A stretch of 64,000 bases of DNA. Source: an uncultured Planctomycetia bacterium. Its GTDB lineage: Bacteria > Omnitrophota > Gorgyraeia > 2-02-FULL-51-18. This document shows positions 3,084 to 59,137 of the stretch, in pieces. The position numbers were made by a program, and so were the translations under genes. Within the stretch, counting starts at the first letter, position 1. Each line of letters begins with the position of its first letter. Under the pieces are notes generated by a model, which had not been told where the DNA came from, ran no database searches, and saw nothing but the letters and a program-made list of their open reading frames with translations. The stretch lies in assembly GCA_964606485.1 (NCBI GenBank), contig CAZSGP010000001.1:97085-161084 (forward strand). The letters run 5' to 3'.

Positions 3084-3135
3084 TTTTTGCTTAATTTTTA
3101 TTAATCTTTTTACTGGTTTATGCTATATTAACTAC

Positions 3136-18191: not shown

Positions 18192-18192
18192 C

Positions 18193-19786: not shown

Positions 19787-20086
19787 TTGAAGATGACCCA
19801 GTATCAGCTTGAGCCAAGTTCGGTGGTCCGCGCTTCTAAAGATCAAGTTTCTTGTGATTTGGAGGGGCAAAAGGCAATTTTAGATGCCAAGAGAGGCATG
19901 TATTATGGTCTTGAGGATTCCGTTGGATGCAGAGTGTGGGATTTAATCAAGACTCCTCGGCGCATCGAAGCATTGGTCCAAATTCTGTCAGAGGAGTGGG
20001 ATGTGGCTCCAAGCCGATGCGAGCAGGATCTCCTCCTTTTCTTAAGTGAGCTCTTAAAAAACGGTCTTATTGAGATACAGCCTTGA
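19787..20086 (+). CDS. PqqD-family protein (RiPP recognition element; lasso B1-like)
   Basis: 99 aa. YYGLEDSVGCRVWDLI...EALVQILSEEWDV...EQDLLLFLSELLKNGLI matches the PqqD/RRE pattern (Y.LN..G..IW.L......L...L...Y.V......D...F...L...GLI). Confidence 0.7.
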   Translation: MKMTQYQLEPSSVVRASKDQVSCDLEGQKAILDAKRGMYYGLEDSVGCRVWDLIKTPRRIEALVQILSEEWDVAPSRCEQDLLLFLSELLKNGLIEIQP

Positions 20087-22215
20087 ATCGGATAGCCAAA
20101 TTTTTTAGCCTGCCACGAGTTCGCAAAACCCTGTTTCTGAAAGCCATTTTTTTTCTATGCCTATTTAGATTGGCTCTATGGATTTTTCCTTATTCAGCCT
20201 TACAGCGCTTTTTAAAAAAAATGAAGTGCTCGAAAGAGCGCGACCGCAGTCTCGGTGAAATGCCGGTAGAAATGGTGGGATGGGCCATTGAGACGGCTAG
20301 TCGTCAAATCCCGCTTGTCGACACCTGTCTTCCTAAAGCCATGACGGCTGTTTATTTGCTAAGACGTGCCGGTAACCCCGCTGTTTTTTGTGTCGGCGTT
20401 TCCAAAGCCGCGCCGGACCGGTTTTCCGCGCATGCCTGGGTTGAAATGGATGGACGCATCGTGATTGGAAGTTCTGCGGCAGAAAAAAACTATGTTCCGC
20501 TGTTGGACATTCAGTGCCCCACGAGAGCCGTGTCTTTGGTTTTAATTTTTCTAGGAATGCAACTTTTGTCCAGCGTGGCATACGCAGTAGACTTCCCTGG
20601 TCCTCCCTCAGGAAGCGGCGCTGAGGTGGTCAGCGAAAAATTTAAAAATGAATCCGAAGAAAAATTAAAAAAGGAGCGCTGGACTCCAAAGATGAGCTTG
20701 GAAGAAGATGAGCCCGAAGAGACCGCGTCTTCGGACCAAACGGAGTTTTACATCCGCAAAATTCACCTGGAAGGCAACACGCTTATTCCTGAAAAGGATA
20801 TCCAGGGAATTTTAAGTGCTTTTGAGGAAAGAAATCAGACTATGGCTGGCTTAAATGCCGTCTGCAAAGCGCTCGAGTTGGAATTTCAAAATCGAGGATA
20901 TTTCGTGGTGGTGTACCTGCCGCCGCAGCGAATTGAAAATCAGGAAGCGATTTTGAAGATTGCCGCGTCCAAGATGGGAGAGCTACATTTGGAGGGCGCG
21001 CACTATTTTAGCCAGAAGCGCACGCTTTCCTATTGGAAAATTCCAAAGGGAGAGGTTTTGGTGTTGGATGATATTCGGACAAACGTACTACGCATGAACG
21101 AAAATCCGGACCGAAATGTGAAATTGTCTCTGAAGGCCGGGGCTGAACCCAGCACGACGGATGTTTATTTGCAGCAAACCGACGAGTACCCATTTCATAG
21201 CTCGGTTTCGCTGGATAATCAGGGCGCTAAGTTAACCGGCAAAGACCGTCCAGGGCTTAGCTTTCGGCACAATAACTTTTATGGATACGACGATGTTTTG
21301 TATGTGGGGACATCGCTAGCGACCGAGATGATGATGTTGTACGTCAACCATCAACTGCCTTTGCCCCAGTGGGGGGTGAGACTAGTGACTTACTTTAGCA
21401 GGTCTCGTGTCACACCCAAAAAAGAGTTTGAGACATTTCATTTGACCGGAGATTCAACTGACTTTGGACTGCAGATTCGGCGGTGGCTATTTGTCAATGA
21501 CCGCGCTTCACTCGAGGCGTACGCCGGTTTTAGTGTGAACGAAAAACGCACTCGCGCATTGGCGCAAGTGGTGACGCGTGACAAGCTTCGATCGCCGTCG
21601 GTGGGATTGGATTTTCAATCTGCCGATGAGGCTGGTTTTTGGAATCTGGGCGGCAGCGTGTCGACCGGATTGGCCAACAATGACGATTCGGTAGCATTGA
21701 CGAGCCGGCAAGCCGGGAGTTCATTTTCAAAAATCAGCGGACTTATTAGACGCGTTCAGCGGCTAGCAACGATGGTTACGGGCGTTCTTAGTTTGCGCGG
21801 ACAGTGGTCACCTGACAGCCTTACTCCGCAACAGCAGATTTTTATGGGGGGCGCTGATAGTGTTCGCGGTTATCCTGAAAGTGATTATGGCGGCGACTAT
21901 GGCTGCATCGGAAATGCAGAAATCCGAACCAAACCCTTTTTTATACCGGAATCGATACGGCTCATGAATTTTAAAGAGTCGCTTAAACAGCAAACGGATC
22001 TCATTTTTTTCTATGATTATGGATATGGTCATTTGGTGGATCCTTCCGACAGAGAACATCGATCCCGAAATTTAAGCAGTGTGGGTTTTGGCTTTAATTT
22101 CAATTTTCGAGACAATTTAAAAGCAATTATTAGCTATGGTTATGCCATTGGCGACCAACCCCTGACCGAATCCGGCAAGTCCCAAGTGCACTTTAAAGTC
22201 GAGAGCACATTTTAA
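20083..22215 (+). CDS. A lasso-peptide B2-like (McjB/transglutaminase-like cysteine protease) domain (aa 1-147), in frame and without a stop, followed by a complete ShlB/FhaC/HecB-type TpsB transporter (aa ~150-710) that has its own signal peptide
   Basis: N-terminal domain carries the B2 motifs DTCLPKAMTAVYLLRRAGNPA...FSAHAWVEMDGRIV (putative Cys82/His117/Asp triad). The internal signal peptide VSLVLIFLGMQLLSSVAYA|VDFP can start at GTG 20530 or ATG 20557. After it come the POTRA segment FYIRKIHLEGNTLIPEKDIQGIL and a beta-barrel ending in an aromatic-rich strand (HFKVESTF). Confidence 0.75.
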   Translation: MNRIAKFFSLPRVRKTLFLKAIFFLCLFRLALWIFPYSALQRFLKKMKCSKERDRSLGEMPVEMVGWAIETASRQIPLVDTCLPKAMTAVYLLRRAGNPAVFCVGVSKAAPDRFSAHAWVEMDGRIVIGSSAAEKNYVPLLDIQCPTRAVSLVLIFLGMQLLSSVAYAVDFPGPPSGSGAEVVSEKFKNESEEKLKKERWTPKMSLEEDEPEETASSDQTEFYIRKIHLEGNTLIPEKDIQGILSAFEERNQTMAGLNAVCKALELEFQNRGYFVVVYLPPQRIENQEAILKIAASKMGELHLEGAHYFSQKRTLSYWKIPKGEVLVLDDIRTNVLRMNENPDRNVKLSLKAGAEPSTTDVYLQQTDEYPFHSSVSLDNQGAKLTGKDRPGLSFRHNNFYGYDDVLYVGTSLATEMMMLYVNHQLPLPQWGVRLVTYFSRSRVTPKKEFETFHLTGDSTDFGLQIRRWLFVNDRASLEAYAGFSVNEKRTRALAQVVTRDKLRSPSVGLDFQSADEAGFWNLGGSVSTGLANNDDSVALTSRQAGSSFSKISGLIRRVQRLATMVTGVLSLRGQWSPDSLTPQQQIFMGGADSVRGYPESDYGGDYGCIGNAEIRTKPFFIPESIRLMNFKESLKQQTDLIFFYDYGYGHLVDPSDREHRSRNLSSVGFGFNFNFRDNLKAIISYGYAIGDQPLTESGKSQVHFKVESTF

Positions 22216-22332: not shown

Positions 22333-25300
22333 ATGATTAATTTGTGGCGAAACTTACAATGTCATAAGCGGCGCAGCGCTCGAATCGCGGCGATGGGGAT
22401 GATGCTGATTTTTCTAGGATCTCCATGCGGACTCGTGTGGGCCTTGCCACAAGGGCAAGATGTCATTAACGGTGATGTCTCTTTCACAAATCCTGATGCC
22501 AATACACTGAATATAAATATCAACAGCGATCAATCTATCATTCAATACAACTCGTTCAATATCGCGGCCGGCGAAACGGTTAACTTCTTTATGCCATCAA
22601 CGGACGCTTTTTCTTTGAACCGCGTGGTCGCCGGCGGGGACTCACAGATTTTTGGAAATCTTTTCGCAAACGGAAATTTAATTTTGTTAAATCAAAATGG
22701 AATTAATTTTGGGGCCGCCGCACAAGTTAACGTTGGAAGTTTGATGGCTTCCACGCAAAATCTTTCGAACGTTGATTTTTTAAACAGACAGTATATTTTT
22801 GCGGGAACTGACAACAATCCAAATTCGTTTATTTCAAACGAAGGCAATATCACCACTTCAAACGGCGGCTTTGTTGTTTTAGCCGCCGACGCCATTAGAA
22901 ACACAGGAACGATCGAAGCGCCGCTAGGCACCGTTATCTTAGCCGGCGGAAAGAATGTCACAGTCAACCTGACAAACGATGGTTTGGTTAACGTGGCGAT
23001 CGACGAAGCCGTCGCTCAAAATGTTTTGGACAGTGACGGCAACCCCATCACGGACCAACTCAAGAATTCAGGGACATTGCGAGGCGCCACGGTTAAGTTG
23101 GACGCCAAGTCTGCCGCTAACATCTACCAAAGTGCTATTAACCAGGATGGCATTATTAGGGCCGATCAAGTCTCTGTTGGTCAGGATGGAATCGTCGAGA
23201 TTACCGCCAGTGGCTTGGTCAAGCTTGGGGGATCTATTGCGGCCGACCAGACAAGCGTTCAATCTGACACTAATATAACGGTAGATACGGCGCTCATCAC
23301 AAGCGGGAACACCATTTTAGCCGCAAAGAACAATATTGATGTTAATGCGAATGTAACGACAGATTCCGGAAGCCTCTCCTTCTTGGCAGATTCTGATTTG
23401 AATGGTCAGGGCGCATTCACGCAGGCTATCGGGACAACGATTAGAACAACCACATTTGGAGATATCACCATTCAAGGTTCTGGTGAGAGTGTTTTAGGAA
23501 ACATTGTTTCGGCGGGAAACATCACGCTTCAGGACGGGGGAGCTTCTGCACATTTCACCCAACTGTCTGGCTCTGTTCTGCAAAGTGGCGGATCCTTCAC
23601 GATTGATAATGGAGTTAGCTATTCCGCATCTAACGCGGTGTTAAGCATTTCAAAAGATTGGTTGAATTATGGATCGTTTGACGCTGGTTTGTCGTTAGTC
23701 AAATTAGTCGGTAGTTTGGATGCAAGCGTTATGGCAAACAATGTATTCAATGATCTCGAAATTATTGAACCGAGCAAAAATGTAGAATTTGAGGCGGGTA
23801 AAACTCAAGAAATTACGGGAACCTTAACCGTTAGTGGTCAAAATGGGAAGATGGTAAATATTCAGTCAACTAACAACGAAATCCCAGCCATCCTATCTAT
23901 TTTGGGAAATTATCGCATTGAATATGCGCAAGTCAAAAATATCACAAGCGTCAATATCCATGGACCCCCGACTGCGGGGCTTCATTTGCAAAACTTAGGC
24001 GGAAACACCGGGTGGGATTTTTCTAGTGGTGTGGTTTTTATTGGCAGTGTATCCTCAGATTGGTCGGATGCTCTCAATTGGGATGGAGGATTTGTCCCTG
24101 GAGCCTTCGATCTCGTTCGTTTTAATGCTTCCTCTGGCAGTGCTTCCTTATATATAGACACGGCAATTGCTGGTCTCTTCCTTGAGTCTGACTATACCGG
24201 AACTTTGAGCCTCGGATCGTCTACCTTAACCATTTCAGGAGATTTTTCTGTTAGAGGTGGAAATTTCCAGGCCGGAACTTCAACTGTCGTTTTTAATGAC
24301 GCCAGCCAAATTTCTCATATTCTGGGTAACAATACGTTTTACAACTTTATGTCCGTCACACCAAGTAAAGTGATTCAATTTGAAGCTGGCAAAACTCAAA
24401 CAATTTTGGGGAATTGGAAACTTGAAGGAGCGTTCGCTCAGCACGTACGTCTAGTCTCCACGGAATCGGGAAATCAATGGTTAGTGGACCCAAGAGGTAG
24501 TTATGATATCAGCTATTCCTGGGTAGAGGATTCGCATAGCTTAAGACCTGGGGATATTATCATGACAGAATCATCCAATCGTGGAAATAGTATCGGCTGG
24601 GATCCGGTCGCAACCTGGACGGGTGCTAGCAGTGCCAATTGGAATGACGCCGGAAACTGGAGCGGGTTGGGTGGAGTGACTCCGGGTATGGGCGACGATC
24701 TGTTATTTCCGGATGGAGCGGCGAATCTTTCAAATACCAATGATTTTGCGGCGGACACTCTTTTTAACTCACTGACCATTTCCGGAAGCGGCTACACGCT
24801 AGCTGGCAATTCGATCATTATTGGTGCGGGTGCGGCTGGCATCACGGATAGCAGTGCAGCGGGATCCAATACGATCAGTCTTCCTATAAAGTTCTTGGCA
24901 ACGCGCACGATCACGGTAACCGATTCTGCCACGACGCTTACGATTAGCGGCATCATTAGCGATGCGGGCGGCCTCACAAAAGAAGGCGCCGGAAAACTGA
25001 TTCTTTCGGGAGCCAACACTTACTCAGGGACAACCAAAGTCAATTATGGTGTTCTAAATATTCAAAATGCCAATGCTTTGGGAACCATCGCCGGCGGAAC
25101 TGAAGTGGTTGAGGGGGCGGGACTTCAGATACAAGGAAATATTGCGGTCGGCGCTGAAGCGCTGCTTTTAAGAGGAAACGGTTTTAGTTCTGCGGGTGCT
25201 TTGAGAAATATCAGCGGTGATAATAGTTACGGCGGCGCCATTACACTGGTTGCAGGAGGTGCTGAGATTTCATCGGATGCTGGCACGCTGACCCTAAACG

Positions 25301-28300
25301 GCGGTATCAGCGGTGCATTTCCTCTCATCGTAGACGGAGCTGGAAATGTAACTTTTGCTTCAACCCCCATCGCGACGGCAGCGGGAACGCTTACCAAAAA
25401 TGGAGCGGGTACGCTGACCTTTAATTTTACAAATACGTTCACAGGCCTTACAACGCTGAATGCCGGAACGCTTCTTTACGGAACGCACAATGCGCTTTCA
25501 ACAGGGGCCGTTACAGTTCTTGGAGGCACGTTTGATGTTGCGACATTTTCAGACAGCATCGGAACGTTGACACTCAATGGCGGAGTTGTTACCGGTTCAA
25601 CAGGCGTGTTGAGCAGTACAGCGACCTACGATGTTCGCAGTGGAACGATTAGCGCGGTACTCGGCGGTGCGGTGGGACTGACTAAAACGACGAGCGGCAC
25701 CGTCGTTCTTTCAGGGGCCAATATTTATACGGGCACAACAACGGTGAGCGCGGGTATTTTATCGGTTCAAAATAATTTAGCTCTGGGAGATATTGATGGC
25801 GCAACGACGGTGACTTCGGGAGCCACTTTGCAGATTGATGGAAATGGTCTATCGATTGCCGAAGCCATTAGCACCTTAAACGGCGTGGGTGTTGTAAGTG
25901 GTACGTCGGGTGTGGGCGCCCTAAGAAATCTTGCTAATAATAATACTTGGACCGGCGCTATTGCGCTTGGCGCGGCCTCAACTATTTACTGCGATGCAGG
26001 AACGCTCACGATTAGCACAACTGGTATTACCGGGAATACTTTTGGTTTAACCGTAGACGGCCCTGGAAATGTGACACTTAGCACCGCTCCGCTCAACACC
26101 ACAACCGGAACCTTGACTAAAAATGGTGCGGGCACCTTGACCATGCAATCATTTAATACCTACACGGGCGTCACCACAATTAATGCAGGAACGCTGGTGT
26201 TAAGCGGCAATGGAGCTTCGACTTTATCTACGTTCACCATTAACTCTGGAGCTGCGCTGACACTTGATAATAGCGGTACGACCGGAGTGGACCGCATGGG
26301 TGATACTTTGGCTGTCACGATGAACGGTGGTGATTTGAATATCATCGGTCACGGCAGTACGTACACGAATATGATCTTGGGCGCTCTGACGTTGAGCTCG
26401 GGAGAAAATACAATCACCATCACTCCAGGTGCCGCTGGGACCGGTGTAACCTTTGCAAGTTTTAGCCGCAGTGCAGGTGCCACGGCTCTTTTTAGAGGAA
26501 CGAGTTTTGGTTCTGCGCCTGGCGCCGGTGTTTCTAGCCTTTTCTTTGTGACCGAATCGGGTCTGTTGACCGGCGGCGAAGGTTCGGCCAACAGCACAAC
26601 GATCAGCATCATCGCCGGAGCGTTTGGGGACAACTCTTTATCCGGAACAGGTACGGATATGGTCACGTACAATGAAGGAAATTCCAACGGACTCAGGCTT
26701 TTAAATGGAGCGGGTTTTAGCGGGGAGTATTTGTCAAACTCCTTTACAACGACAAATGCCAATGTGAAGCTGACGGCTGCGACCAATGCCGCAACCGGAA
26801 CCATCAATTCGCTGATCATCGATTCCGGAGGCTCAATTGCGGACGCAGGAACCGCCGAGACCATTACGTTTACGACGGGAAATATTTTAAGTTTATCAGG
26901 CAATTCAGGAATTAGCGGCGCCAACACCACATTAGCATTTGGCACGGTCCAAGCATCAACACGAGTGGTAGGGGATCTGGCGATTTCAGCCGCAATCACC
27001 GGAACCGGCGGACTTGCCACTGGCGGAGCGGGCACGTTGACGTTTAGCACCGCACAAGCCTACACCGGACTCACCTCGATCAATGACACAACTTTTCTTT
27101 ATGTGATAGACAATGCTATTAGCACCGGTGCGTTGACGATCAATAACGGAATACTTAATTTATCAACCTTCTCCGATAGCGTGGCCGCGGTGATATTGAC
27201 CAGCGGTTCGATCAGCGGCTCTGGGACTTTAACCAGCACCGCAAGTTTCACCGTTTCAAGCGGGACTGTTACCGCTACTTTGAACGGCGGGGTGGCGCTA
27301 ACAAAAACGACAGTCGGAACTGTGACGCTGTCCGGAAATAATTCCTATACCGGCTTGACGACGATCAGCGCTGGCGTGCTCAAATTGGGTGCGACCGGTA
27401 GCGGTGCGAATACGCCGCTTGGGACGACCGGCGCGGGAACATCCGTGACGAGTGGCGCCGCGCTTGATTTGAATGGCTTTACACTTGCAACTGCAGAAGG
27501 ATTGACGATTAACGGAACGGGTATTGCGCTGGGCGGCGCTTTAATGAATAGCTCAGCAACTCCTGTCAGTTATAGCGGCAACATTATTCTGGGGGCCGCC
27601 TCACGCATTAATGCAAATTCGGGGACTTTAACGCTGAATGGCGGTATTTCAGGGGCGTTTGGCCTGACGGTTGGAGGAGCCGGCAATAGCACAATTTCAG
27701 GCGTAATCTCAACTGTCACTTCACTCACAAAAGATGGAACAGGCACGCTCACTCTCTCGGGTGACAACACGATGGCAGGGACTACTACCGTCAGCGTGGG
27801 AACTCTTAAACTGGGCGCAAATGGCGGCGGCACCAATACTCCACTGGGCACGACGGCGGCTGGCACGTCTGTGACGAGTGGCGCTGTGCTAGATCTCAAT
27901 GGATTTTCTTTGGGAACAACAGAAGGATTAACGATTAACGGTACCGGCATTAATGGCGGCGGCGCGCTGATCAATAGCGCAGTCGGCACTCCGACCTATC
28001 AAGGAGCTATTGCTCTCGGAAGTGCGAGCACGATTACCTCAAATAACGGAGCCATCACTTTATCGGGCGCATTTTCTGGCGCATTCGCGCTGACACTCGA
28101 TGGCACTTCCAGCGGCACCATTAGCGGCGTTGTGGGAACCGGAGCGGGAACAATCACAAAAGTTGGCACTGGCACATGGACACTTTCAAATGCGGGAAGC
28201 ACTTACACGGGCCTCACCACGATTAGTGCTGGCACTCTTAAGCTAGGAGCCAACGGTGGCGCCACCAATACCCCACTGGGCACAACAGGTGGAGCAACCG

Positions 28301-31300
28301 TAGTCAACAGTGGAGCGGTGCTTGATTTAAATGGGTTCGCGCTCGGAACTGCTGAAGGCCTAACTTTAAATGGGATGGGTATTGCCAACGGCGGCGCTCT
28401 CATCACCAATGCCGCGTCCACATTTCTGGGAGCTATTACACTTGCAAGTGACACGCGCATTGCAAACTCCGGCGCTGGAACTGCGCTCACATTGAACGGC
28501 GGCGTTACGACAGCTGGCTTTTTGTTAACGGTCGGCGGCGCGGGTAATACTACCTTTTCGACTGCCGCTGTTGCGGGAGCGGGTGGAATTATCAAAGAGG
28601 GTGCGGGAACACTCACTATGAACGTATCTTCAAGTTATACGGGTGCGACACTGGTGAAGGCCGGAACATTTACTTATGGTGCGTCCGGTCTTTTGGCAGT
28701 GACCGCGTTAACGGTGACCGGAGGGACGTTTGATATCAATACAATTTCCGACGCCATTGGAACGGTAACCCTGCTTGGTGGAAGCATCACCGGAACAACC
28801 GGCGTTTTAACGTCTACCGGATACACGGTTGAAAACGGAACGATTGATGCGATTCTTGCAGGTGCCGTAACCTTGGTTAAAAATACAACTGGAACGGTGA
28901 CGATGACGAAAGCCAACACCTACAGCGGCGCTTCCACGATCAATGCTGGTACGCTGACATTGAGCGGATCGGGAACGGCAGTGAGTTCCGCGTTTACCAT
29001 AAACTCAGGCGCAACACTGACGCTTGATAATAGCGGAACCAATGTCGCAAGCCGCTTGGGCGACGCGGTCGCACTGACCATGAATGGTGGAAATTTTTAT
29101 TTTATCGGGAATGGCGCCGCGGCCGCATCTGAAACAGCGGGCGCGCTGACGTTGTCATCCGGGTACAACATCGTAACCGTTACGGTGGGCGCCGGCGGAT
29201 CTACGATTATGACCTTTGCCAGTGCGTCGAGAACGGCGGGCGCTACTGTTTTATTTCGTGGAAATAGTCTTGGAAATGCGCCTGCCGCAAATGTTGCCAA
29301 TATTCGTTTCACCAATGCCACCGGATTGGGGTTAACGGGAGCCAACACCACCGCGACCGATAAACCCATTGTTCCTTATGCGTTCGGCGAGCCTTCCGGA
29401 GGCGGGACGGGAACGAGTTTTGTCACGCACAATGTTGATCTTGTTGGAAACGCCGCAAACACAAACGGTATTCGTCCGCTCGATCTCGCCACCGAGTACG
29501 TCGCCGATTCTTTTGCAGCAGGTTCTGCTAATAAAAACGTCATCATCCAAAACGCAACCAATGCTGCCGCCCAGACGATTAATTCACTGCTTCTTTATAA
29601 CGCCAGTGTTTCCTACGCCAGTGATGTAACGATCACCGTGACATCGGGTGCCGTGGCTCGTGTGCTCGCAGGAGATATTGAAGCAACCTCTGCAAGCGCC
29701 ACCCGCATATTGGCGTTCGCAGGTGTTGAAGCGAAAATTTTCGCCATCGATTCGTTTTATATTGCTCCAAATATTACCGGAACTGCGGGGCTCAGCACGG
29801 GCGGCACGGGTACGCTGACATTTCCCGGCGCGGGCACGTTTGGTGTTGTCAAAGCTTACACGGGAACCACGACGATTAATTCCGGCACGCTGACCTATGG
29901 ACTGAGTGATGCCTTGTCTAGCGGAGCGGTGACGGTTGTCGGCGGAACTTATAATCTTGCGGGATTTTCAGATAGTATCGGTGCGCTCACAATGAATGGG
30001 GGGACGGTTACAACCGGAGCTGGTACGCTGACGCTCGGCGGTACTGTGACGACGCTCGCCTCAATTAGAGAGTCGACGATTAGCGGGAATCTTGGACTTG
30101 GCGCTAATAGAATTTTTGACGTGGCCGATGGTCTTGTTGTAAATGATCTGGTTGTGTCGGCCGTGATTAGCGGGGGCTTTACCGTTACAAAAAGCACCGG
30201 AACCGGCACACTCGTTTTTTCAGGTGACAATACCTACACGGGCGTAACCACTATTTCAAGCGGAATTTTTAAATTAGGTGCGAGCGGCGGCGGAGTGAAC
30301 ACGCCTCTTGGCACAACCGCCGCAGGAACGGTGATCTCTAACGGTGCGGCATTTGATTTAAATGGATTTACACTTGGGACTGCTGAAGGGTTAACCATCA
30401 ATGGAACCGGCGTTTCCTCGTCCGGCGCTTTGTTTAATAGTTCGGGAACCGCCGTAACCTATAGCGGATTACTCGTGATCGGCGCAACCGCGCCAACGAT
30501 TACGGCAAATAATGGGAATATCAATATATCCAATGTCGGAACTATTACCGGTGCTGCGGTGGTGCTGACATTGAGCGGCTCCGGCAATGGGTCGGTTACG
30601 AGCATCATTGGAACACCTACAAGCGGTTTAACAAAAACGGGTGCTGGCACTTGGACACTTTCCGGTGATAGCACTTATGCCACCGCAACCACCATCAGTG
30701 CAGGTGTTATAAAACTGGGCGCTGCCGGCGGCGGCACCAACACACCGCTCGGAACAACCGCGGCGGGAACGGTGGTCTCAAGCGGCGCGGCGCTCGACTT
30801 GAACGGTTTTACTTTGGGCACAGCCGAAGGTTTAACCATTAGCGGCGCGGGCATTGTGAGTGGTGGAAGCGTGGGCGCTTTGATTAACAGTTCAGGTAGT
30901 TCCGTGACATACAGCGGACAACTGTTATTAGGGGCCAGTTCCACAATCACCGCAAATAATGGAGATATTAATTTAAGCGCCGTCGGAACCATCACGGGCG
31001 CAGGTTTTGCGCTGACTTTGAATGGATCTGGAAATGGTTCACTAGCCAGTGTTGTTGGAACGGTAGGGGGTACAGTCGTTAAAAATGGCCAAGGCACCTG
31101 GACATTGTCCGGCTCCAGCACCTACACCGGAGCGACTACCGTGAATGCCGGAACTCTCAAGCTCGGAGCCACCGGTGGCGGTACGAACACGCCGCTTGGC
31201 ACGACTGGCACAGGAACCACGGTTAATGCCGGCGCCGTACTTGATTTAAATGGTTTTACATTGGGAACCACTGAGGGCTTGACGCTGAACGGAAGCGGTA

Positions 31301-34300
31301 TCAATAACGGCGGCGCTCTCGTAAATAATTCAGGCTCTGCTACCGGTTACAGTGGTGCCATCGTCATGGGTTCGGCCACGCGCATCACCAATTCGGGTGC
31401 CGGACTTTTGACGCTGAGTGGTGCTACTACAGGCGCTTTTAATCTTTCGGTAGGTGGCGCCGGCGATACCACGATCTCCGCAAATATTACGACGGCTGGA
31501 ATCACACTCACCAAAGATGGGGCGGGGACACTCACTTTAAGCGCTGCGAACGGCTTCACGGGACTCACTCGCGTTGACGCGGGCACTTTAAAATATGGCA
31601 TTGCCAACGCGTTAAACACGGGTGCTGTAACTATTGCTGGCGGTACATTGGACATCAGCGGATTTTCTGATACCAATCTTGGCGCGCTGACATTGATTAG
31701 CGGCTCGGTTATCAATAGCGGCGGCGCGGCAACCATTACTTCAACAGCAACATACACACTTGAAAGCGGTACGGTTAGTGCTGTTCTAGCCGGTGTCGGA
31801 ATTGCCTTAAATAAAAATACGGCCGGTACGGTGACGATTAATGCGAGCCAAACCTATACCGGAACAACAACCATTAATGCCGGTATTTTAACTTATGGAG
31901 CGAGCGGACTTTTAGCGGCAACTGCGATAAACGTATCGGGCGGTACCTACGACATCAATTCTATTTCCGACACCGTCGGCGCCGTAACGCTTACGAGCGG
32001 ATATATTACGGGCACCACCGGTGTTCTAACCGGCACGTCGTATGCCGTGCAGAGCGGCACGATATCCGCCATTCTCGGCGGTGCAGTGGCTTTAACCAAA
32101 ACGACTTCCGGCACAGTGATTTTGTCCGGCCTAAATACGTATACCGGTGTTACGACGATTACTGCCGGAACTTTAAGCGTTTCTGTTTTAGCGAACGGCG
32201 GCGCATCTAGCGGCATTGGTGCCGCTGCAGCCCTTTCCACTAATCTTGTGTTTAATGGCGGCACTTTGCAATACACGGGTACTGGGCACAGCACCGACAG
32301 ACTTTTTACCATCAACACAACAATTACGGCGATTATTGACGCGTCAGGTTCCGGAACCGCTTCGTTCACTGGCGCATCGATTACGTATCAAACTAACAAC
32401 ACGATCCATGGACTCACTCTTACCGGAAGAGGCAATGGCAGTTTTACTCCCGTGATCGCCAATATGGGAACAGGTGTTACCTCCGTTACTAAAAATGGAA
32501 CAGGCACTTGGACTCTGAATGGCACAAGCACTTACACGGGAACCACGACGGTGAATGCGGGCACTTTTGCCTATGGAGCCAGTAATATACTGGCCGTAAC
32601 GGCCTTAACCGTTTCCGGAGGAACCTTTAGCATGGCCGGCTTCTCGGATACGATCGGAGCGGTCAATCTTACGAGTGGGAGCATTACCAGCACCACCGGT
32701 GTTTTGACAGGAACTTCGTATGCCGTGCAAAGAGGGACGATCAGCGCCATTCTTGCCGGTGCGGTCACGATGACGAAAACGACTGCGGGTACCGTGGTGT
32801 TATCCGGCGTAAATACATACTCGGGCGTCACCACCATCACGGCCGGTGTATTGAGTGTCGGCACAATTGGCAATGGTGGTGTCTCAGGCAATCTCGGAGC
32901 AGCTGCCGTGGCGGTGGGCAATATCGTGCTAAACAGCACCGGCGTTTTGCAGTATACCGGATCGACTGCTTCAACAAACCGCGGCTTTACATTAACGGCG
33001 GCTGCTACTTCTTTTATTGATATCACGCAAAGCGGAACCATTCTGACGGTTTCGGGAGGCAGTGCCGCCAATACCGGAGGGCTCACAAAGATTGGCGCCG
33101 GCACCTTAACATTTTCTGCGGCCGTTTCATACACCGGAACCACAACCATCACTGCCGGTACGCTCGCTTACGGCGCCGCCAATATTTTAAGCACCGGTGC
33201 TGTCACCGTTGATGGCGCTACTGCTGTTCTAGCCATGGGCAACAATCAATCGGATACCGTTGGCACTGTTACGGTTTCGAGCGGCGGCAGCATCACCGGA
33301 AGCGGAACTTCCGCACTCACGACCACTGGAACCTTTGAAATGCAAAGCGGCTCAGTGAGCGCAATCCTTGCCGGAGCCGTCGCTTTAAATAAAACGACTT
33401 CCGGAACCGTGACGCTTTCCGGTGTCAACACTTACACGGGTGTTACCACGATTAGCGCTGGAACATTGAGTGTCGGAACGATTGGAAACGGTGGCGTCGC
33501 TGGAAATCTCGGAGCTGCCGCCGTGGCAGTAGGAAATATCGTCATCGGCGGCACGGGAGTGTTGCAGTACACCGGCGGCACAGCTTCCACGAACCGCGGC
33601 TTCACCATCACCGCCGGTCAAACGGGCACGATTGATGTGAGCAATGGCGCAGCAACACTCACCATTTCAGGCGGAACCGCAACGAACTCGGGCGCCCTTA
33701 CAAAAATTGGAGCTGGCACTCTAACCTTTACGACGACTGCCGCGACTTACACTGGCACCACCACGATCAATGCGGGAACTTTGTCCTACGGCATGGCCAA
33801 TATGCTGAGCAGTGGAGCAGTCACCGTTGACGGAGCGACTGCGGTTCTGGCTCTGGGCCTTAATCAATCCGACACGGTCGGAACGGTTACAGTGGCGAAT
33901 GGTGGAAGCATCACCGGAACTGGAACCTCCTCACTGACTTCCACAGGCACCTTTGAAATGCAAAGCGGTTCGGTGAGTGCGATTTTGGCGGGGGCGACAA
34001 TTGTAATGAATAAAACCACCGCCGGGACGGTGACGCTTTCAGGAGTAAATACATTTACTGGTCTGACTACAATCAGCGCCGGAACATTAACCTATGGAGT
34101 CAATGATGCGTTGTCGAACGGCGGCGTGACCGTCTCTGGCGGAACGCTTAGTCTTTTAACTTTTAATGAAACGAATATTGGCGCGGTGACGCTGACAAGT
34201 GGATCCATCACGAGCACAACCGGTGTTTTGACGGGTACGTCTTACGCCGTGCAAAGTGGTTCGATCAGCGCAATTCTTGCCGGAGCCGTCGCTTTAAATA

Positions 34301-37300
34301 AAACGACTTCCGGAACCGTGACGCTTTCCGGTGTCAACACTTACACGGGTGTTACCACGATTAGCGCTGGAACATTGAGTGTCGGAACGATTGGAAACGG
34401 TGGCGTCGCTGGAAATCTCGGAGCTGCCGCCGTGGCAGTAGGAAATATCGTCATCGGCGGCACGGGAGTGTTGCAGTACACCGGCGGCACAGCTTCCACG
34501 AACCGCGGCTTCACCATCACCGCCGGTCAAACGGGCACGATTGATGTGAGCAATGGCGCAGCAACACTCACCATTTCAGGCGGAACCGCAACGAACTCGG
34601 GCGCCCTTACAAAAATTGGAGCTGGCACTCTAACCTTTACGACGACTGCCGCGACTTACACTGGCACCACCACGATCAATGCGGGAACTTTGTCCTACGG
34701 CATGGCCAATATGCTGAGCAGTGGAGCAGTCACCGTTGACGGAGCGACTGCGGTTCTGGCTCTGGGCCTTAATCAATCCGACACGGTCGGAACGGTTACA
34801 GTGGCGAATGGTGGAAGCATCACCGGAACTGGAACCTCCTCACTGACTTCCACAGGCACCTTTGAAATGCAAAGCGGTTCAGTCACGGCTATTTTGGCGG
34901 GGGCGGTGGCGCTGAACAAAACAACATCAGGCACAGTGACATTGACCGGAGTTAACACTTACTCTGGCATTACCACGATTACATCTGGCACGCTCAGCGT
35001 CGCGGCTGATTCCGGTCTCGGCACTGCTCCCGGTTCTCCCACAGCCGGACATCTCGCCTTTAATGGCGGCGCACTTCAAACGACAGCCGGTTTCACGCTT
35101 AATTCTAATCGTGGTGTGGCTCTTACGGGAGACGGCACTTTCTTGGTGGATCCTGCAACCACTCTTGTTTACAACGGAATTATTACGGGCACAGGAGCTC
35201 TCAGTAAAACAGGCACAGGCACACTGACACTGGGCGGCAGTGTGACGAGCGGCGGATTGACGGTGACTGCGGGAACGTTTGGTGCTTCCGGAGTTTCGTT
35301 GCTTGATGTGAACGGCAACGTCTTGATTAACGGCGGTACACTCACACCGCCCGCACTTAACTTTACAGTTTCAGGGGATTGGACAGTAAGCTCAGGCACT
35401 TTTAACGCGGGTTCAGGACGCGTGGTATTTGATGGATCAGGAACTCAACAAGTCAGTGTCGGCGGGCAAAGTTTTTATGAATTCACACACACGGGAAGCG
35501 GAACGGTTCAGCTGGTGACGAGTGCCTTCAGCGCAAACGCGTTTACGAATTCCAACGGAACCTTTAGTTTGAATGGTCAAAATTTCACGGTCTCAAGCTC
35601 TTCTTTTACGAACACCGCCAATATGGAACTTCAAGGCAATGAAACCGTTTCGATTAATTCTCCCTACGTCGTGGCCGGAACCTGGACTTACCGCGGCCGC
35701 AATATCGCTGAGACCTTGACGATTAAAGATTTCGGTGCGATTGATTATTACAATTTAACGATCAATGACACGAACGGCACCAAAGCAACGTTTAGCATTG
35801 CCGATTCTTTGGTGGTGAGCGGCACACTGACGCTTTCGGGCGGAAATCTCACGCAAGCGTCCGGATCAGGGAACACCATTACGGCGGCTATTTATGCTCA
35901 ATCGGGCGGCAGTACGTTTACGGGCGGTAACGCCGATATGACGATCAATGGAGATCTGGGTCTTTCGGGCGCTGATACTATTTTTACAACCTCCAGCGCG
36001 ACAACTCAGGTGATTACGCTGACGGTGAATTCGAGCGGCTCTGGCGAGCTCTTAATGGCTTCAGGAGCCACTCTTCGCGTGACGGGTTCCGGAACACCGG
36101 TGACCGGAACCGGAACGATCGATACGACCACCAACGGGAATAACACTTTTGAGTTTACAGGTGCGGCAGATATTTCAACAGCGAGCCCCTTTTACAATCT
36201 TTCTCTGATCGCCGTTCCATTTAGTCAGGGCGGAATCCTCACTTTAAATTATGATGAAAGCGCCATCACATCCGTTGTGATCGATACGACCAACGGCTTC
36301 GGATACTTTGGTACGGGTACAAGCCCCGGCATCATTATCAAAGTTCGTCTCGCCGATAACAGCCGCGTGGGCGCTTTAACACTCGCTTCAGGTGAAAATA
36401 ATTTAACCACCGCGGTGATGGACGGCCAATACGCCTATTTCGGAACCTATACCACTTCCGCAAAAGTGGTGAAAGTGGATCTGTCCACTTTCACGCGCGT
36501 GAGTGCTGTTTCGTTGAGTGCGGGTCAAGACTATCTCTATGCTTCCGTGGTCGACACCACCAATCATTTTGCTTATTTCGGAACTTACACCGCACCCGGC
36601 AAGATCATTAAGATCAACACCGCCTCCGGCAGTTTTGCTTATGTCGGAGAGTTGGACATGGGCTCGGTCGGAGCCAACGAAAGTTATTTTTATAACAATG
36701 CCGCGGTGCTCGACACCGAAAACAACTTTGCGTACTTTGGCACCTATACCGAGAATGGCGCAAGCGGCGCTTACGTTGTTAAAATCAACACCGCTCCGGC
36801 CGGTTTTGCTTATGTCGGCAATATTGCGCTTGCGAATGGAGAAGACAATATTGCCTCTGCGGTGATCGATCTTTCGGGGGCCACCAATTACGCTTATTTT
36901 GGAACCGACACCGCTCCTGGACAAATCGTAAAAGTGAATTTGAATACCTTTACGCGAGTCGGCGCCGCAACGGGCATTGTGGCCGGCGAAGACAATTTCA
37001 CATCCGCTGTGATCGACACCGCCAATCAATTTGCTTATTTTGGAACCGACACCGCTCCCGGAAAAATCGTGAAAATTGATCTCGCTACTTTTGCGAAGAC
37101 GTCTACCATCACTCTAAATTCGGGCGAAGATTATCTTTATTCTGCGGCGATTGACACCTCAAACAATTTCGCTTATTTCGGCAATGCCAATAACCCCGGC
37201 TACATCATCAAGGTGAATACCTCGACCGGCTCGTTTGCACGCGTTTCATCTTTGCAGACCAATGTCGCCGAAAACTGGATCAATTCCGCGGTCATCGATA

Positions 37301-52549: not shown

Positions 52550-52619
52550 GCCACACCCTCGTAGGCCCCATTTTTTAAGTCCTGGGACTGAGAGGGCGGA
52601 GCTGTAGACATAGGGGTTC

Positions 52620-53486: not shown

Positions 53487-53490
53487 ATAA

Positions 53491-57824: not shown

Positions 57825-57825
57825 T

Positions 57826-59136: not shown

Positions 59137-59137
59137 A

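What the first reader, a model, noticed from the sequence alone, without database searches (positions are those of the whole stretch)
19787..22215. PqqD (B1) plus lasso B2-like protease domain running in frame, without a stop codon, into a complete TpsB outer-membrane transporter
The stand-alone PqqD-like gene (19787-20086) is followed by a 710-aa ORF. Its first ~147 aa carry the diagnostic lasso B2/McjB motifs (C-L-P-K...LLRRAG...F-S-A-H-A-W-V-E...G, giving Cys/His/Asp).

With no intervening stop, the reading frame continues into a textbook signal peptide (VSLVLIFLGMQLLSSVAYA|VD) and then a full-length ShlB/FhaC TpsB with POTRA and barrel. Candidate internal starts are GTG 20530 and ATG 20557.

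This has at least two readings. One is a genuine cytoplasmic-protease plus signal-anchored TpsB fusion, which is topologically odd. The other is two genes whose separating stop has been lost or mis-assembled, with TpsB made from an internal start.

In either case the B1/B2 pair that the AsnB-like cyclase would need sits 21 kb from it, on the far side of the tpsBA pair. That suggests either an insertion of tpsBA into a lasso cluster or a functional coupling between RiPP maturation and two-partner secretion.
Basis: partly seen in the sequence, partly recalled or inferred. Interest (0 to 1): 0.8.

Follow-up and report, generated by a model that had tools for sequence, protein, structure and literature searches.

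The report
Lasso-peptide protease fused to outer-membrane transporter
In an uncultured Omnitrophota bacterium, the enzyme that trims the leader off a lasso-peptide precursor is encoded in one reading frame with an outer-membrane secretion pore, because a giant two-partner secretion gene pair sits stably inside the lasso-peptide gene cluster; the fusion is real and recurs in a relative, but whether the two systems work together is still unknown.

Summary
ORF 20083-22215 (710 aa) reads without a stop through three parts:
- a complete lasso B2 leader-peptidase domain (PF13471 81.7 bits; NF033537 86.4 bits, cutoff 33);
- a signal-peptide-like hydrophobic segment (...AYA|VD);
- a complete TpsB.
An overlapping PqqD/B1 gene precedes it and a 5,463-aa TpsA follows.

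It is not an artefact. A relative about 45-50% identical (Omnitrophica RIFCSPHIGHO2_02_FULL_63_14, at least four assemblies) has the same fusion with a different junction. A third lineage (CG07_land_50_8, two assemblies) has B2 and tpsB as separate genes with an ATGA overlap. The three form a 100%-bootstrap clade among 85 Omnitrophota TpsBs.

Outside that clade, the closest B2 and cyclase homologues lie in contiguous B1-B2-C clusters, usually followed by precursor and kinase. In the window the cyclase (NF033535, 668 bits), a 53-aa precursor, a kinase and a nucleotidyltransferase lie 21 kb downstream. In another genome an orthologous TpsA ends 10 nt before C-A-kinase.

So a tpsBA pair is stably embedded in a lasso cluster, and B2-TpsB fusion arose from translationally coupled neighbours. 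The two products are most likely separated by signal peptidase or by internal initiation. Functional coupling between the two systems remains open.

The parts
19787..20086 (+). B1: stand-alone PqqD-type RiPP recognition element. The likely true start is ATG 19793. Its stop overlaps the B2 start (TTGA).
   Evidence: PF05402 50.2 bits. NF033536 71.4 bits, below its cutoff of 80. 51-52% identical to the B1 of the two sister lineages.
20083..20502 (+). B2 domain (aa 1-140) of the 710-aa fused ORF: lasso leader peptidase with a transglutaminase-like Cys protease fold. It is complete up to the family's C-terminal YxP motif (Pro139).
   Evidence: PF13471 81.7 bits and NF033537 86.4 bits. Cys82 and His117 are invariant in 45 homologues. 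AlphaFold model has pLDDT 87.4. It is the only B2 in the window.
20503..20586 (+). Junction (aa 141-168), an internal signal-peptide-like segment: LDIQCPTR + AVSLVLIFLGMQLLSSV + AYA|VD. It contains the candidate internal starts TTG 20503, GTG 20530 and ATG 20557.
   Evidence: Sequence. Hydropathy maximum 2.19. Helix at aa 148-159 in the model. It aligns with the N-terminal signal peptides of TpsB-only relatives and of the split L008/L097 TpsB.
20587..22215 (+). Mature TpsB (aa 169-710, predicted 61.1 kDa): H1 helix (aa 180-197), two POTRA domains, Omp85-type beta-barrel, and the L6 motif SVRGYPESDY.
   Evidence: POTRA_2 41.6 bits and ShlB 99.3 bits. CdiB 6wim E = 8.8e-15 and FhaC 4qky E = 5e-8. 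AlphaFold secondary structure, pLDDT 70-89. Alignment with 7 relatives. Predicted mass.
22333..38724 (+). TpsA: a 5,463-aa secreted giant protein with an N-terminal signal peptide, a TPS secretion domain and 24 PATR repeats.
   Evidence: PF05860 TPS 90.9 bits, cutoff 33.5. PATR repeats. The N-terminus is 55-62% identical to the TpsA of the sister lineages. The C-terminal 1,560 aa are 45-48% identical to the ORF preceding the cyclase in L092/L093.
38733..39734 (-). Beta-lactamase-family gene on the opposite strand. It separates the B1-B2::tpsB-tpsA unit from the cyclase operon in this genome only.
   Evidence: PF13354 134 bits. Absent in L092/L093, where TpsA ends 10 nt before the cyclase.
39804..40748 (+). 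2OG-Fe(II) oxygenase fused to a second PqqD/RRE domain; a putative tailoring enzyme of the lasso cluster.
   Evidence: PF13640 36.8 bits and PF05402 45.5 bits. A 36%-identical homologue lies directly upstream of the cyclase in L091.
40745..41413 (+). SAM-dependent methyltransferase (DOT1/PCMT-like); a putative tailoring enzyme.
   Evidence: PF08123 39.3 bits plus other methyltransferase families.
41410..43293 (+). C: lasso peptide isopeptide-bond-forming cyclase.
   Evidence: NF033535 667.9 bits, cutoff 525. TIGR03108 XrtA-system amidotransferase only 197 bits against a cutoff of 817.
43315..43476 (+). A: predicted 53-aa lasso precursor. Leader ...SYQSPKVTVYGSVSKLTG; core AKAVGKKRDGSGTKKT, with a possible Ala1-Asp9 ring.
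   Evidence: ORF. Homologous ORFs at the same position in L092/L093 (39%) and L091 (44%). Shared leader motif and Asp8/9-Gly in five loci.
43503..44315 (+). K: HPr-kinase-like kinase; a putative phosphotransferase acting on the C-terminal residue of the precursor.
   Evidence: PF07475 25.8 bits, below its cutoff of 33.3. 32-45% identical to the kinases following the precursor in L088, L091, L092 and L094. The role is inferred from paeninodin-type clusters (PMC8498205).
44312..45262 (+). N: NTP_transf_5 nucleotidyltransferase; a putative tailoring enzyme.
   Evidence: PF14907 111 bits. 36% identical to the equivalent gene in L091. The role is inferred from pseudomycoidin (PMC8498205).

Best explanation
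This is a split-B lasso-peptide biosynthetic cluster. Its genes are B1, B2, cyclase C, precursor A, an HPr-kinase-like kinase, a nucleotidyltransferase, an RRE-fused oxygenase and a methyltransferase. It belongs to an Omnitrophota bacterium. An ancestor acquired a two-partner secretion pair (tpsB-tpsA, 18.6 kb) exactly between B2 and C.

In that ancestor, B2 and tpsB became translationally coupled neighbours joined by an ATGA overlap. One lineage still shows this state. In the window's lineage, and probably independently in a second lineage, the separating stop was lost. One ORF now encodes B2, then the former TpsB signal peptide, then TpsB.

The fusion is tolerated because the internal signal peptide still works. 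The cytoplasmic B2 domain is made first. The hydrophobic segment then engages Sec as a signal-anchor, and the TpsB part is translocated. Signal peptidase I cuts after AYA168. This would release a 61-kDa mature TpsB for insertion into the outer membrane. It would leave an 18.9-kDa B2 tethered to the cytoplasmic face of the inner membrane. Some TpsB may also be made from an internal start (TTG 20503 or GTG 20530).

B2, together with B1, still serves the lasso pathway. B1 binds the YxxP-type leader of the 53-aa precursor. B2 cuts after Thr-Gly. C closes an Ala1-Asp9 ring.

Shown here: the ORF, the domains, the conserved catalytic Cys and His, recurrence of the fusion, the split orthologue, the clade, the contiguous layout in relatives outside the clade, and the TpsA-to-cyclase adjacency in another genome.

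Inferred: signal-peptidase cleavage, membrane tethering, enzymatic activity, and the identity and ring of the precursor.
For: ORF and domains:
- ORF and domain matches.
- The same 710-aa product is called on a 546-kb NCBI contig, and a 664-aa version of it on a Logan contig.

Recurrence of the fusion:
- P0002/P0290/P0291 have the same architecture (44% identity over 98% of the query by BLASTP; 49% over mature TpsB).
- They occur in ENA x2, NCBI GCA_001804145.1 and JGI contigs, and include a one-residue strain variant.

The split state:
- L008 and L097 have B2 (148 aa) and TpsB (570 aa, starting MKKH...) as separate genes in different frames with an ATGA overlap.

Phylogeny:
- The three lineages form a clade with 100% bootstrap support among Omnitrophota TpsBs.
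- B1, B2 and TpsB give the same internal topology.
- None of the other 79 genome loci carries B2 or PqqD within 10 kb.

Junctions:
- They differ. The window keeps 9 residues after Pro139, while P0002 joins Pro139 directly to the TpsB Met.

Layout outside the clade:
- B1-B2-C is contiguous with 4-nt overlaps in L088 and L099 and closely spaced in L090; B2-C overlap by 4 nt in L094, where no PqqD was detected upstream. Precursor, kinase, nucleotidyltransferase and ABC exporter follow where the contig extends.

TpsA next to the cyclase:
- In L092/L093 an orthologous TpsA C-terminus ends 10 nt before C, followed by precursor and kinase.

The lasso genes look functional:
- The cyclase is above its NCBIfam cutoff.
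- A precursor family with a conserved leader motif is seen in five loci.
- The B2 domain is intact: invariant Cys82 and His117, AlphaFold pLDDT 87.4, and it is the only B2 in the window.

TpsB looks functional:
- It is complete, with an H1 helix directly after the predicted cleavage site. That region is conserved in TpsB-only relatives whose proteins begin with an ordinary signal peptide at this position.

Precedent:
- B2 fused to a cluster nucleotidyltransferase is known (PMC8498205), and B2 fused to other enzyme domains occurs in the protein library.
Against: - There is no experimental evidence for cleavage or for any of the products.
- The n-region before the hydrophobic core in the window (LDIQCPTR) has no net positive charge.
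- It is uncertain how efficiently a signal sequence placed after a folded 140-aa domain is targeted and cleaved.
- The genome lacks Shine-Dalgarno motifs, so internal initiation can be neither supported nor excluded.
- A neutral, tolerated fusion does not by itself explain two facts. The tpsBA pair has been kept at exactly this position through about 50% protein divergence while the outer flanks changed. The fusion is present in two of three lineages.
- Parsimony cannot separate two independent fusions from one fusion followed by one fission.
- The full block, from B1 through K, has been seen on a single contig only in the window.
Confidence: 0.6

Rival explanations
1. Genuine functional coupling. 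The B1-B2-TpsB-TpsA-C-A-K block is one system in which lasso-peptide maturation is physically or regulatorily tied to two-partner secretion. For example, membrane-tethered B2 could work at the translocon, or the cationic lasso peptide could act together with, bind to, or be delivered by the giant TpsA. On this reading the fusion is selected because it enforces 1:1 co-production and co-localisation.
For: - The block has been retained in three lineages at about 50% identity, with co-diverging B1, B2 and TpsB, while the outer flanks differ: polysaccharide genes in the window, SAM synthetase and AdoHcyase in L001.
- B2 and tpsB are either ATGA-coupled or fused, the fusion being present in two of three lineages.
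- In L092 TpsA is followed 10 nt later by C, which suggests a single operon.
- The window has no ABC exporter next to its lasso genes, whereas L094 and L099 do.
- B2-nucleotidyltransferase fusions have been read as evidence of a shared pathway (PMC8498205).
Against: - TpsB acts only at the outer membrane, on Sec-exported substrates that carry a TPS domain (established knowledge of FhaC-type transporters). The lasso precursor has neither a signal peptide nor a TPS domain.
- The TpsA N-terminus is an ordinary signal peptide plus TPS domain, with no leader-like extension.
- None of the other 79 TpsB loci from the genome scan has B2 or PqqD within 10 kb, and every relative lasso cluster examined outside the clade lacks a TPS pair.
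- In the window an opposite-strand gene splits the block into two transcription units.
- Vertical inheritance of an old insertion could produce the same synteny.
Confidence: 0.2
2. B1/B2 have been co-opted by the secretion system. The RRE/protease pair would process TpsA or TpsB, or another secreted substrate, rather than the lasso precursor.
For: - B1-B2 are always immediately upstream of tpsB in the clade, and are transcriptionally closer to tpsBA than to the cyclase in the window.
- In the RIF and CG07 lineages no cyclase has yet been seen, because the contigs end inside TpsA.
Against: - The window has an intact cyclase, a precursor with the YxxP...T leader motif that B1/B2 systems recognise, and no other B2.
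- B1 and B2 are about as similar to those of contiguous lasso clusters outside the clade (B1 41-47%, B2 43% for L088 and 33-36% for the others) as to each other within the clade.
- TpsA and TpsB N-termini show no such leader motif.
Confidence: 0.05
3. Sequencing or assembly artefact in the window. A missed stop or indel near 20500-20545 joins two separate genes in silico.
For: - A 1-nt shift after 20503 would give B2 a 13-aa tail ending at TAA 20542-20544, overlapping a GTG 20530 start.
- The closest relative by overall TpsB identity in the scans (L008/L097) has separate genes.
Against: - The identical protein comes from NCBI and Logan assemblies.
- The A7 homopolymer lies upstream of the in-frame conserved YxP motif, so the frame is correct at least to Pro139.
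- An equivalent fusion with a different junction is reproduced in at least four assemblies and two alleles of another lineage, which shows that fused ORFs are biologically real in this clade.
Confidence: 0.04
4. The fused B2 is a decaying remnant. The lasso cluster was broken by the tpsBA insertion and is on its way to loss, so the fusion has no function.
For: - The cluster is split by 21 kb and by an opposite-strand gene.
- The L092 cyclase lacks about 67 N-terminal residues.
- PqqD scores below its NCBIfam cutoff.
Against: - B2 keeps the invariant Cys, His, Trp and Gly residues, and folds confidently.
- B1, B2, C, A, K and N are all intact ORFs in the window.
- B2 has been preserved in three lineages that diverged to 40-52% identity without acquiring stops.
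Confidence: 0.05

Closest known systems
Split-B lasso peptide clusters with an HPr-kinase homologue and a nucleotidyltransferase (paeninodin and pseudomycoidin type; review PMC8498205)
   Same: Both have stand-alone PqqD (B1), a PF13471 B2 protease, an Asn-synthetase-like cyclase, and a small precursor with a Thr at the penultimate leader position. Both also have a kinase and an NTP_transf_5 gene directly after the precursor.
   Different: - An 18.6-kb tpsB-tpsA pair lies between B2 and C.
- B2 is fused to TpsB.
- There is no ABC exporter next to the cluster in the window.
- The core ends in Thr (KKT) rather than Ser.
- There are an extra RRE-fused 2OG oxygenase and a methyltransferase.
- The host is Omnitrophota, not Firmicutes or Proteobacteria.
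B2-nucleotidyltransferase fusions in Firmicutes lasso clusters (PMC8498205), and the B2-methyltransferase and ATP-grasp-B2 proteins found here (P0155, P0279)
   Same: The B2 domain is fused in frame to another enzyme domain. In the literature case the partner is the product of a neighbouring cluster gene.
   Different: Those partners are cytoplasmic enzymes. Here the partner is an outer-membrane beta-barrel that must cross the inner membrane, so the two halves cannot function in one compartment. None of the 150 closest of 7,364 B2-like proteins, apart from the window's own, is a TpsB fusion. The gene contexts of P0155 and P0279 were not examined.
FhaC/CdiB/ShlB-type TpsB transporters of two-partner secretion (PDB 4qky, 6wim)
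   Same: Both have an H1 helix, two POTRA domains, an Omp85 barrel, the VRGY loop-6 motif, and a cognate TpsA with a TPS domain immediately downstream.
   Different: The signal peptide here is internal, preceded by a 140-aa cytoplasmic cysteine-protease domain. Sequence similarity to the solved TpsBs is low (E = 9e-15 to 5e-8).
Bacterial polyproteins split at an internal signal peptide, e.g. the Bradyrhizobium FbcH cytochrome b/c1 precursor (from my own knowledge; not retrieved)
   Same: One ORF with an internal Sec-type signal sequence. Cleavage there would yield an N-terminal membrane-anchored product and a translocated C-terminal product.
   Different: Cleavage is demonstrated for FbcH and only predicted here. 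The FbcH products belong to one complex, whereas B2 and TpsB have no known common function.

Membership tests
Lasso peptide B2 leader peptidase (PF13471 / NF033537) | Profile match above the curated cutoffs | tested here: met
   PF13471 81.7 bits (cutoff 26). NF033537 86.4 bits (cutoff 33), covering profile positions 2-131 of 132.
Lasso peptide B2 leader peptidase (PF13471 / NF033537) | Catalytic Cys and His conserved | tested here: met
   Cys82 and His117 are invariant in alignments of 9 and of 45 homologues.
Lasso peptide B2 leader peptidase (PF13471 / NF033537) | Third catalytic residue (Asp) of the Cys-His-Asp triad | tested here: inconclusive
   No invariant Asp column was found. Glu121 is nearly invariant and Asp123 is variable. 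Foldseek against the PDB gave only non-significant hits to transglutaminase-like proteases (E >= 0.056).
Lasso peptide B2 leader peptidase (PF13471 / NF033537) | Partner B1 (PqqD RRE) adjacent; cyclase and precursor in the same locus | tested here: met
   B1 overlaps B2. The cyclase passes NF033535 at 667.9 bits against a cutoff of 525. A precursor candidate with the family motif is present. However, C and A lie 21 kb away rather than adjacent.
Lasso peptide B2 leader peptidase (PF13471 / NF033537) | Leader-peptide cleavage activity | not testable with these tools
   Needs biochemistry.
TpsB (ShlB/FhaC/HecB) Omp85 transporter | POTRA_2 and ShlB barrel profile matches | tested here: met
   POTRA_2 41.6 bits (cutoff 24). 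ShlB 99.3 bits (cutoff 22.7). CdiB and FhaC are the only PDB sequence matches.
TpsB (ShlB/FhaC/HecB) Omp85 transporter | Architecture of H1 plug helix, linker, two POTRA domains and a 16-strand barrel with the loop-6 VRGY motif | tested here: met
   The AlphaFold model shows a helix at aa 180-197, POTRA elements at aa 222-340 and barrel strands at aa 344-709, with pLDDT 70-89. SVRGYPESDY is conserved in all relatives. I did not verify the strand count rigorously.
TpsB (ShlB/FhaC/HecB) Omp85 transporter | N-terminal cleavable Sec signal peptide | tested here: not met
   A signal-peptide-like segment with an AYA|VD site exists, but it is internal (aa 141-168), behind the B2 domain. It would be N-terminal only if translation starts at TTG 20503 or GTG 20530.
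TpsB (ShlB/FhaC/HecB) Omp85 transporter | Cognate TpsA with a TPS domain encoded next to it | tested here: met
   The ORF at 22333-38724 has PF05860 TPS at 90.9 bits (cutoff 33.5) over aa 38-276.
Lasso peptide precursor (A) | Leader motif YxxPxLx3Gx5Tx, followed by a core with Asp or Glu at position 7-9 | tested here: met
   The window has Y21-QS-P24-K-V26-TVY-G30-SVSKL-T36-G37 followed by AKAVGKKRD9. The same spacing is seen in L088, L091, L092 and L094. The motif definition comes from my own knowledge of lasso leaders. Ring formation is not testable here.
HprK-related kinase A/B systems (TIGR04352 / TIGR04355) | Profile match above cutoff | tested here: not met
   33.0 and 27.3 bits against cutoffs of 200. 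The kinase is only distantly HPr-kinase-like.
XrtA/PEP-CTERM exopolysaccharide-locus amidotransferase (TIGR03108) | Profile match above cutoff. I considered this family because the locus lies among polysaccharide genes. | tested here: not met
   197 bits against a cutoff of 816.9, whereas the lasso cyclase model passes.

The most novel reading that the evidence does not exclude
The B1-B2(::)TpsB-TpsA-C-A-kinase block is a single hybrid system, in which a RiPP pathway and a two-partner secretion pathway are mechanistically coupled. Fusion of the leader peptidase to the TpsB precursor would place lasso-peptide maturation at the inner-membrane translocon and set a 1:1 ratio with the outer-membrane pore. 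The highly cationic, probably phosphorylated or glycosylated, lasso peptide would then act with, be loaded onto, or be released alongside the 5,463-aa TpsA. It might, for example, be part of the attack or attachment apparatus of these putatively host-dependent nanobacteria.
Probability: 0.15. Interest if true: 0.85.

Novelty: new variant of a known kind. Interest (0 to 1): 0.55.

Why it matters
Lasso-peptide clusters and two-partner secretion systems are both well-studied modules. In the searchable literature I found no report of them being interleaved, or of a RiPP leader peptidase fused to an Omp85-family transporter.

If the fusion is simply tolerated, it is a natural bacterial example of one ORF yielding a cytoplasmic-face enzyme and an outer-membrane protein through an internal signal peptide. 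That is useful for understanding how operon neighbours fuse and how Sec handles internal signals.

If the linkage is functional, it would point to a new way of deploying a RiPP, together with a giant surface protein, in an uncultured phylum thought to live off other cells.

Practically, it warns genome-mining tools that a lasso cluster can be split by more than 20 kb. It also warns them that a '710-aa ShlB-family protein' can hide the cluster's only B2 protease.

Tried and rejected
1. Ribosome-binding-site analysis to choose between internal starts. None of 18 confident ATG starts in the window has a 4-5-nt Shine-Dalgarno core (four have only a weak AAGG or GGA), so this was uninformative.

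2. Promoter and terminator scans of 19-23 kb and 38-46 kb. Counts were not above shuffled expectation, so no operon boundaries could be called.

3. Full-length AlphaFold model on an 8-sequence alignment. The B2 part had low confidence (pLDDT about 40-60), so I did not interpret domain packing. A B2-only model from a 45-sequence alignment was confident. Foldseek against the PDB gave no significant hit, so there was no structural proof of the triad.

4. Attempts to see what follows TpsA in the RIF and CG07 lineages. All contigs (L001, L002, L008, L095, L096, L097) end inside TpsA. L092/L093 show TpsA-C-A-K, but I could not assign them to a lineage. Their 59% GC excludes CG07 (49%) and is compatible with RIF (58-62%).

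5. Suspicion that the 147-aa cluster member P0289 was a split B2 allele of the window's gene. It is a C-terminal TpsB fragment at a contig end.

6. A frameshift at the A7 run (20482-20488) as an error source. I rejected this because the conserved YxP motif lies in frame downstream of it.

7. The word-indexed homologue search with the B2 domain alone returned only 4 proteins. The exhaustive HMMER search was needed.

8. Reading the AsnB-like gene as a polysaccharide-locus amidotransferase, or the kinase as an HprK_rel_A/B member. Both scored far below the cutoffs.

9. A literature search for the FbcH internal-signal precedent found nothing citable, so I give it from memory only.

Full report
**1. 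What is in the sequence**

The ORF list and raw sequence show a 99-aa ORF at 19787-20086. Its TGA overlaps the TTG start of a 710-aa ORF at 20083-22215. Pfam and NCBIfam give the following matches.

| Region | Model | Score |
|---|---|---|
| small ORF | PF05402 PqqD | 50.2 bits |
| small ORF | NF033536 lasso_PqqD_Bac | 71.4 bits (cutoff 80) |
| large ORF, aa 36-141 | PF13471 Transglut_core3 | 81.7 bits |
| large ORF, aa 15-142 | NF033537 lasso_biosyn_B2 | 86.4 bits (cutoff 33) |
| large ORF, aa 222-293 | POTRA_2 | 41.6 bits |
| large ORF, aa 359-671 | ShlB | 99.3 bits |

Between the two halves there is no stop. The sequence there reads ...NYVPL-LDIQCPTR-AVSLVLIFLGMQLLSSV-AYA|VDFPGPP. This is a hydrophobic stretch with an AxA site, and it aligns with the N-terminal signal peptides of TpsB-only relatives.

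In-frame candidate starts are TTG 20503, GTG 20530 and ATG 20557.

The ORF that follows (22333-38724, 5,463 aa) has a TPS secretion domain (PF05860, 90.9 bits) and 24 PATR repeats. It is therefore a TpsA. Cys82 and His117 are invariant in 45 homologues, but no invariant Asp was found.

**2. The rest of the lasso cluster**

The lasso genes downstream of TpsA are as follows.
- **Cyclase:** the Asn-synthetase-like gene at 41410-43293 passes the NCBIfam lasso cyclase model (NF033535, 667.9 bits, cutoff 525). It fails the model for the polysaccharide-locus amidotransferase.
- **Upstream of the cyclase:** a 2OG oxygenase fused to a second PqqD domain, then a methyltransferase.
- **Downstream of the cyclase:** a 53-aa ORF (43315-43476), an HPr-kinase-like gene and an NTP_transf_5 gene.

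The 53-aa ORF reads ...SYQSPKVTVYGSVSKLTG|AKAVGKKRDGSGTKKT. It fits the lasso leader motif YxxPxLx3Gx5Tx, and it has Asp at core position 9.

Homologous small ORFs sit at the same position in four other loci. They share the leader motif and an Asp8/9-Gly in the core. Kinase and nucleotidyltransferase tailoring of lasso peptides is known from paeninodin and pseudomycoidin (PMC8498205).

A profile search of all six frames finds no second B2 in the window. The fused B2 is therefore the only candidate leader peptidase for this cluster.

**3. Is the fusion real?**

Evidence from the window's own lineage:
- The identical protein is called as 710 aa on a 546-kb NCBI contig and as 664 aa on a Logan contig.

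Evidence from a second lineage:
- P0002 shares 44% identity by BLASTP over 98% of the query, and 49% over the mature TpsB. It has the same PF13471 + POTRA_2 + ShlB architecture.
- It occurs with an overlapping PqqD upstream and a TpsA downstream in two ENA samples, in a JGI metagenome, and in NCBI MAG GCA_001804145.1 (Omnitrophica bacterium RIFCSPHIGHO2_02_FULL_63_14, protein OGW91906.1).
- A one-residue allele, P0291, is also fused.

A one-off artefact is therefore very unlikely. A frameshift at the A7 run is excluded, because the conserved YxP motif lies in frame after it.

**4. The orthologue with separate genes**

This lineage is Omnitrophica CG07_land_8_20_14_0_80_50_8, seen in L008 and in an independent JGI contig, L097. 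The order there is B1 (32-337), B2 (334-780, 148 aa, ending ...YHPLAGAERIFL*), TpsB (777-2489, 570 aa, beginning MKKHILKIQIALVIILIALLILPSRRAFA|DTPQ), then TpsA. B2 and tpsB lie in different frames and share an ATGA overlap.

It shows that the unfused state exists and is translationally coupled.

**5. Phylogeny and rarity**

A scan of one genome per species returned 80 TpsB loci, nearly all from Omnitrophota. Only the loci above contain B2 or PqqD within 10 kb.
- In a neighbour-joining tree of 85 TpsBs the three B2-associated lineages form one clade, with 100% of 200 bootstraps.
- The fused RIF lineage is sister to the split CG07 lineage (86% bootstrap), and the window lineage branches outside them.
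- B1, B2 and TpsB identities all give this same topology. The block was therefore assembled once and has co-diverged.

The state of the B2/tpsB junction changed at least twice. The two fused junctions differ: the window keeps 9 residues after Pro139, while RIF joins Pro139 directly to the TpsB initiator Met. I therefore favour two independent stop-loss fusions, although one fusion plus one fission is equally parsimonious.

An exhaustive HMMER search of 1.84 billion representative proteins found 7,364 B2-like proteins. Among the 150 closest, the only TpsB fusion is the window's own protein. The only two other long proteins are B2 + methyltransferase and ATP-grasp + B2.

**6. The cluster layout outside the clade, and the embedded secretion pair**

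The closest stand-alone B2 (P0013, 43%) and close cyclase homologues sit in contiguous clusters:

| Locus | Order |
|---|---|
| L088 | B1-B2-C-A-kinase, then one more gene with no Pfam call (contig end) |
| L090 | B1-B2-C |
| L094 | B2-C-A-kinase-nucleotidyltransferase-ABC exporter |
| L099 | B1-B2-C, followed by nucleotidyltransferase and ABC exporter |

In three of them (L088, L094, L099) B2 and C overlap by 4 nt; in L090 they are 43 nt apart.

The window has this same order, but with tpsB, tpsA, an opposite-strand beta-lactamase-family gene, the oxygenase-RRE and the methyltransferase lying between B2 and C.

In L092/L093 a large ORF running off the contig is orthologous to the last 1,560 residues of the window's TpsA (45-48% identity, aligned to the final residue). 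It ends 10 nt before a cyclase (52%), which is followed by a precursor homologue (39%) and the kinase (42-45%).

The secretion pair between B2 and C is therefore a conserved feature of this group, not a private insertion. The flanks outside the block differ: polysaccharide genes in the window, SAM synthetase and AdoHcyase in RIF.

**7. How it most likely works**

The B2 domain is intact (AlphaFold pLDDT 87.4), and so is TpsB. The model shows an H1 helix at aa 180-197 directly after the predicted cleavage site, then two POTRA domains and the barrel. The loop-6 VRGY motif is conserved. CdiB and FhaC are the only PDB sequence matches.

A TpsB cannot be assembled into the outer membrane while tied to a cytoplasmic domain, so the two parts must be separated. 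The simplest route is that the former signal peptide acts as an internal signal-anchor and is cut by signal peptidase I after Ala168.
- This would give a 61.1-kDa mature TpsB.
- It would also give an 18.9-kDa B2 anchored in the inner membrane by its new C-terminal helix.

Internal initiation at TTG 20503 or GTG 20530 is the alternative or an additional route. It cannot be judged here, because this genome does not use Shine-Dalgarno sequences.

Cleavage, anchoring and activity are all inferences. I know one bacterial precedent for a polyprotein cut at an internal signal peptide, the Bradyrhizobium FbcH protein, but only from memory (one search found nothing citable).

**8. Functional coupling or not**

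Points in favour of a real link between lasso maturation and two-partner secretion:
- the block has been retained and has co-diverged;
- the B2/tpsB junction is either coupled or fused;
- TpsA and C are tightly spaced in L092;
- the window has no ABC exporter next to its lasso genes.

Points against:
- TpsB acts only at the outer membrane, on Sec-exported proteins that carry a TPS domain, and the precursor has neither feature;
- TpsA has an ordinary N-terminus;
- in the window the block is cut into two transcription units by an opposite-strand gene;
- vertical inheritance alone can preserve synteny.

I put the tolerated neighbour-fusion reading at 0.6 and genuine coupling at about 0.2.

**9. 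Comparison with what is known, and novelty**

By membership test, the parts are a lasso B1/B2/C/A cluster of the kinase/nucleotidyltransferase type and a TpsB/TpsA pair. Fusions of B2 to a cytoplasmic tailoring enzyme are known (PMC8498205).

What is new is the partner, an outer-membrane transporter placed behind an internal signal peptide, and the stable interleaving of the two systems.

Full-text searches returned nothing on this. The terms tried were lasso peptide with two-partner secretion, with Omnitrophota, and with PF03865. I also searched within two Omnitrophota giant-gene preprints.

I rate it a new variant of a known kind, of moderate interest. The architecture is surprising and reproducible, but its functional meaning is unresolved.

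Noticed in passing
window 38733-39734 (-): A beta-lactamase-family gene (PF13354, 134 bits) with an N-terminal hydrophobic segment is the only opposite-strand gene inside the block. It lies between TpsA and the cyclase operon. It is absent from L092/L093, where TpsA ends 10 nt before the cyclase.
   Followed up: partly
window 39804-40748 (+): A 2OG-Fe(II) oxygenase is fused to a C-terminal PqqD/RRE domain, giving the cluster a second leader-binding module. A 36%-identical homologue sits directly upstream of the cyclase in L091.
   Followed up: partly
window 33341-34549 within TpsA (22333-38724): TpsA contains 300-nt direct repeats that are 98% identical and 909 nt apart, and the translation shows a long stretch of amino-acid sequence that occurs twice. 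Such repeats are prone to collapse or expansion in short-read assemblies, so the true length of TpsA may differ.
   Followed up: partly
window 3067-11445 (+): A second giant ORF (2,792 aa) has TPR repeats and no other recognisable domains. It lies upstream of the polysaccharide genes.
   Followed up: no
window 52034-55819 (+): A UpxY/RfaH-like transcription antiterminator (NF033644, 131 bits) heads a second polysaccharide module, which has an ABC-2 permease, an FkbM methyltransferase and an ABC ATPase.
   Followed up: no
window 15255-19759 and 56526-60891 (+): There are two paralogous sugar-tailoring sets, each with a C-methyltransferase carrying a zinc-binding N-domain and a DegT/EryC1 aminotransferase. 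They flank the lasso/secretion block on either side.
   Followed up: no
window, 18 ATG gene starts between 1458 and 61914: No 4-5-nt Shine-Dalgarno core is detectable upstream of confident starts (four show only a weak AAGG or GGA), and many genes overlap by 4 nt. Start-codon choice, including TTG and GTG starts, cannot be validated from ribosome-binding sites in this genome.
   Followed up: yes
L092 5008-6687 and L093 2835-4514: The cyclase homologue that follows TpsA (P0020, 559 aa) lacks about 67 N-terminal residues relative to the window's cyclase. The missing part is not encoded in any frame upstream.
   Followed up: partly
P0155 and P0279 (library proteins, no locus fetched): These are other rare B2 fusions: B2 + SAM methyltransferase (388 aa) and sugar-transfer ATP-grasp + B2 (582 aa).
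   Followed up: partly
L099 1-9131: A relative genome (GCA_023250515.1) carries two or three Asn-synthetase-like genes in tandem. The set also includes a second PqqD, a 55-aa ORF, a ScmC-like kinase and several NTP_transf_5 genes next to glycosyltransferases. This suggests that duplicated lasso-type modules sit in polysaccharide neighbourhoods.
   Followed up: no
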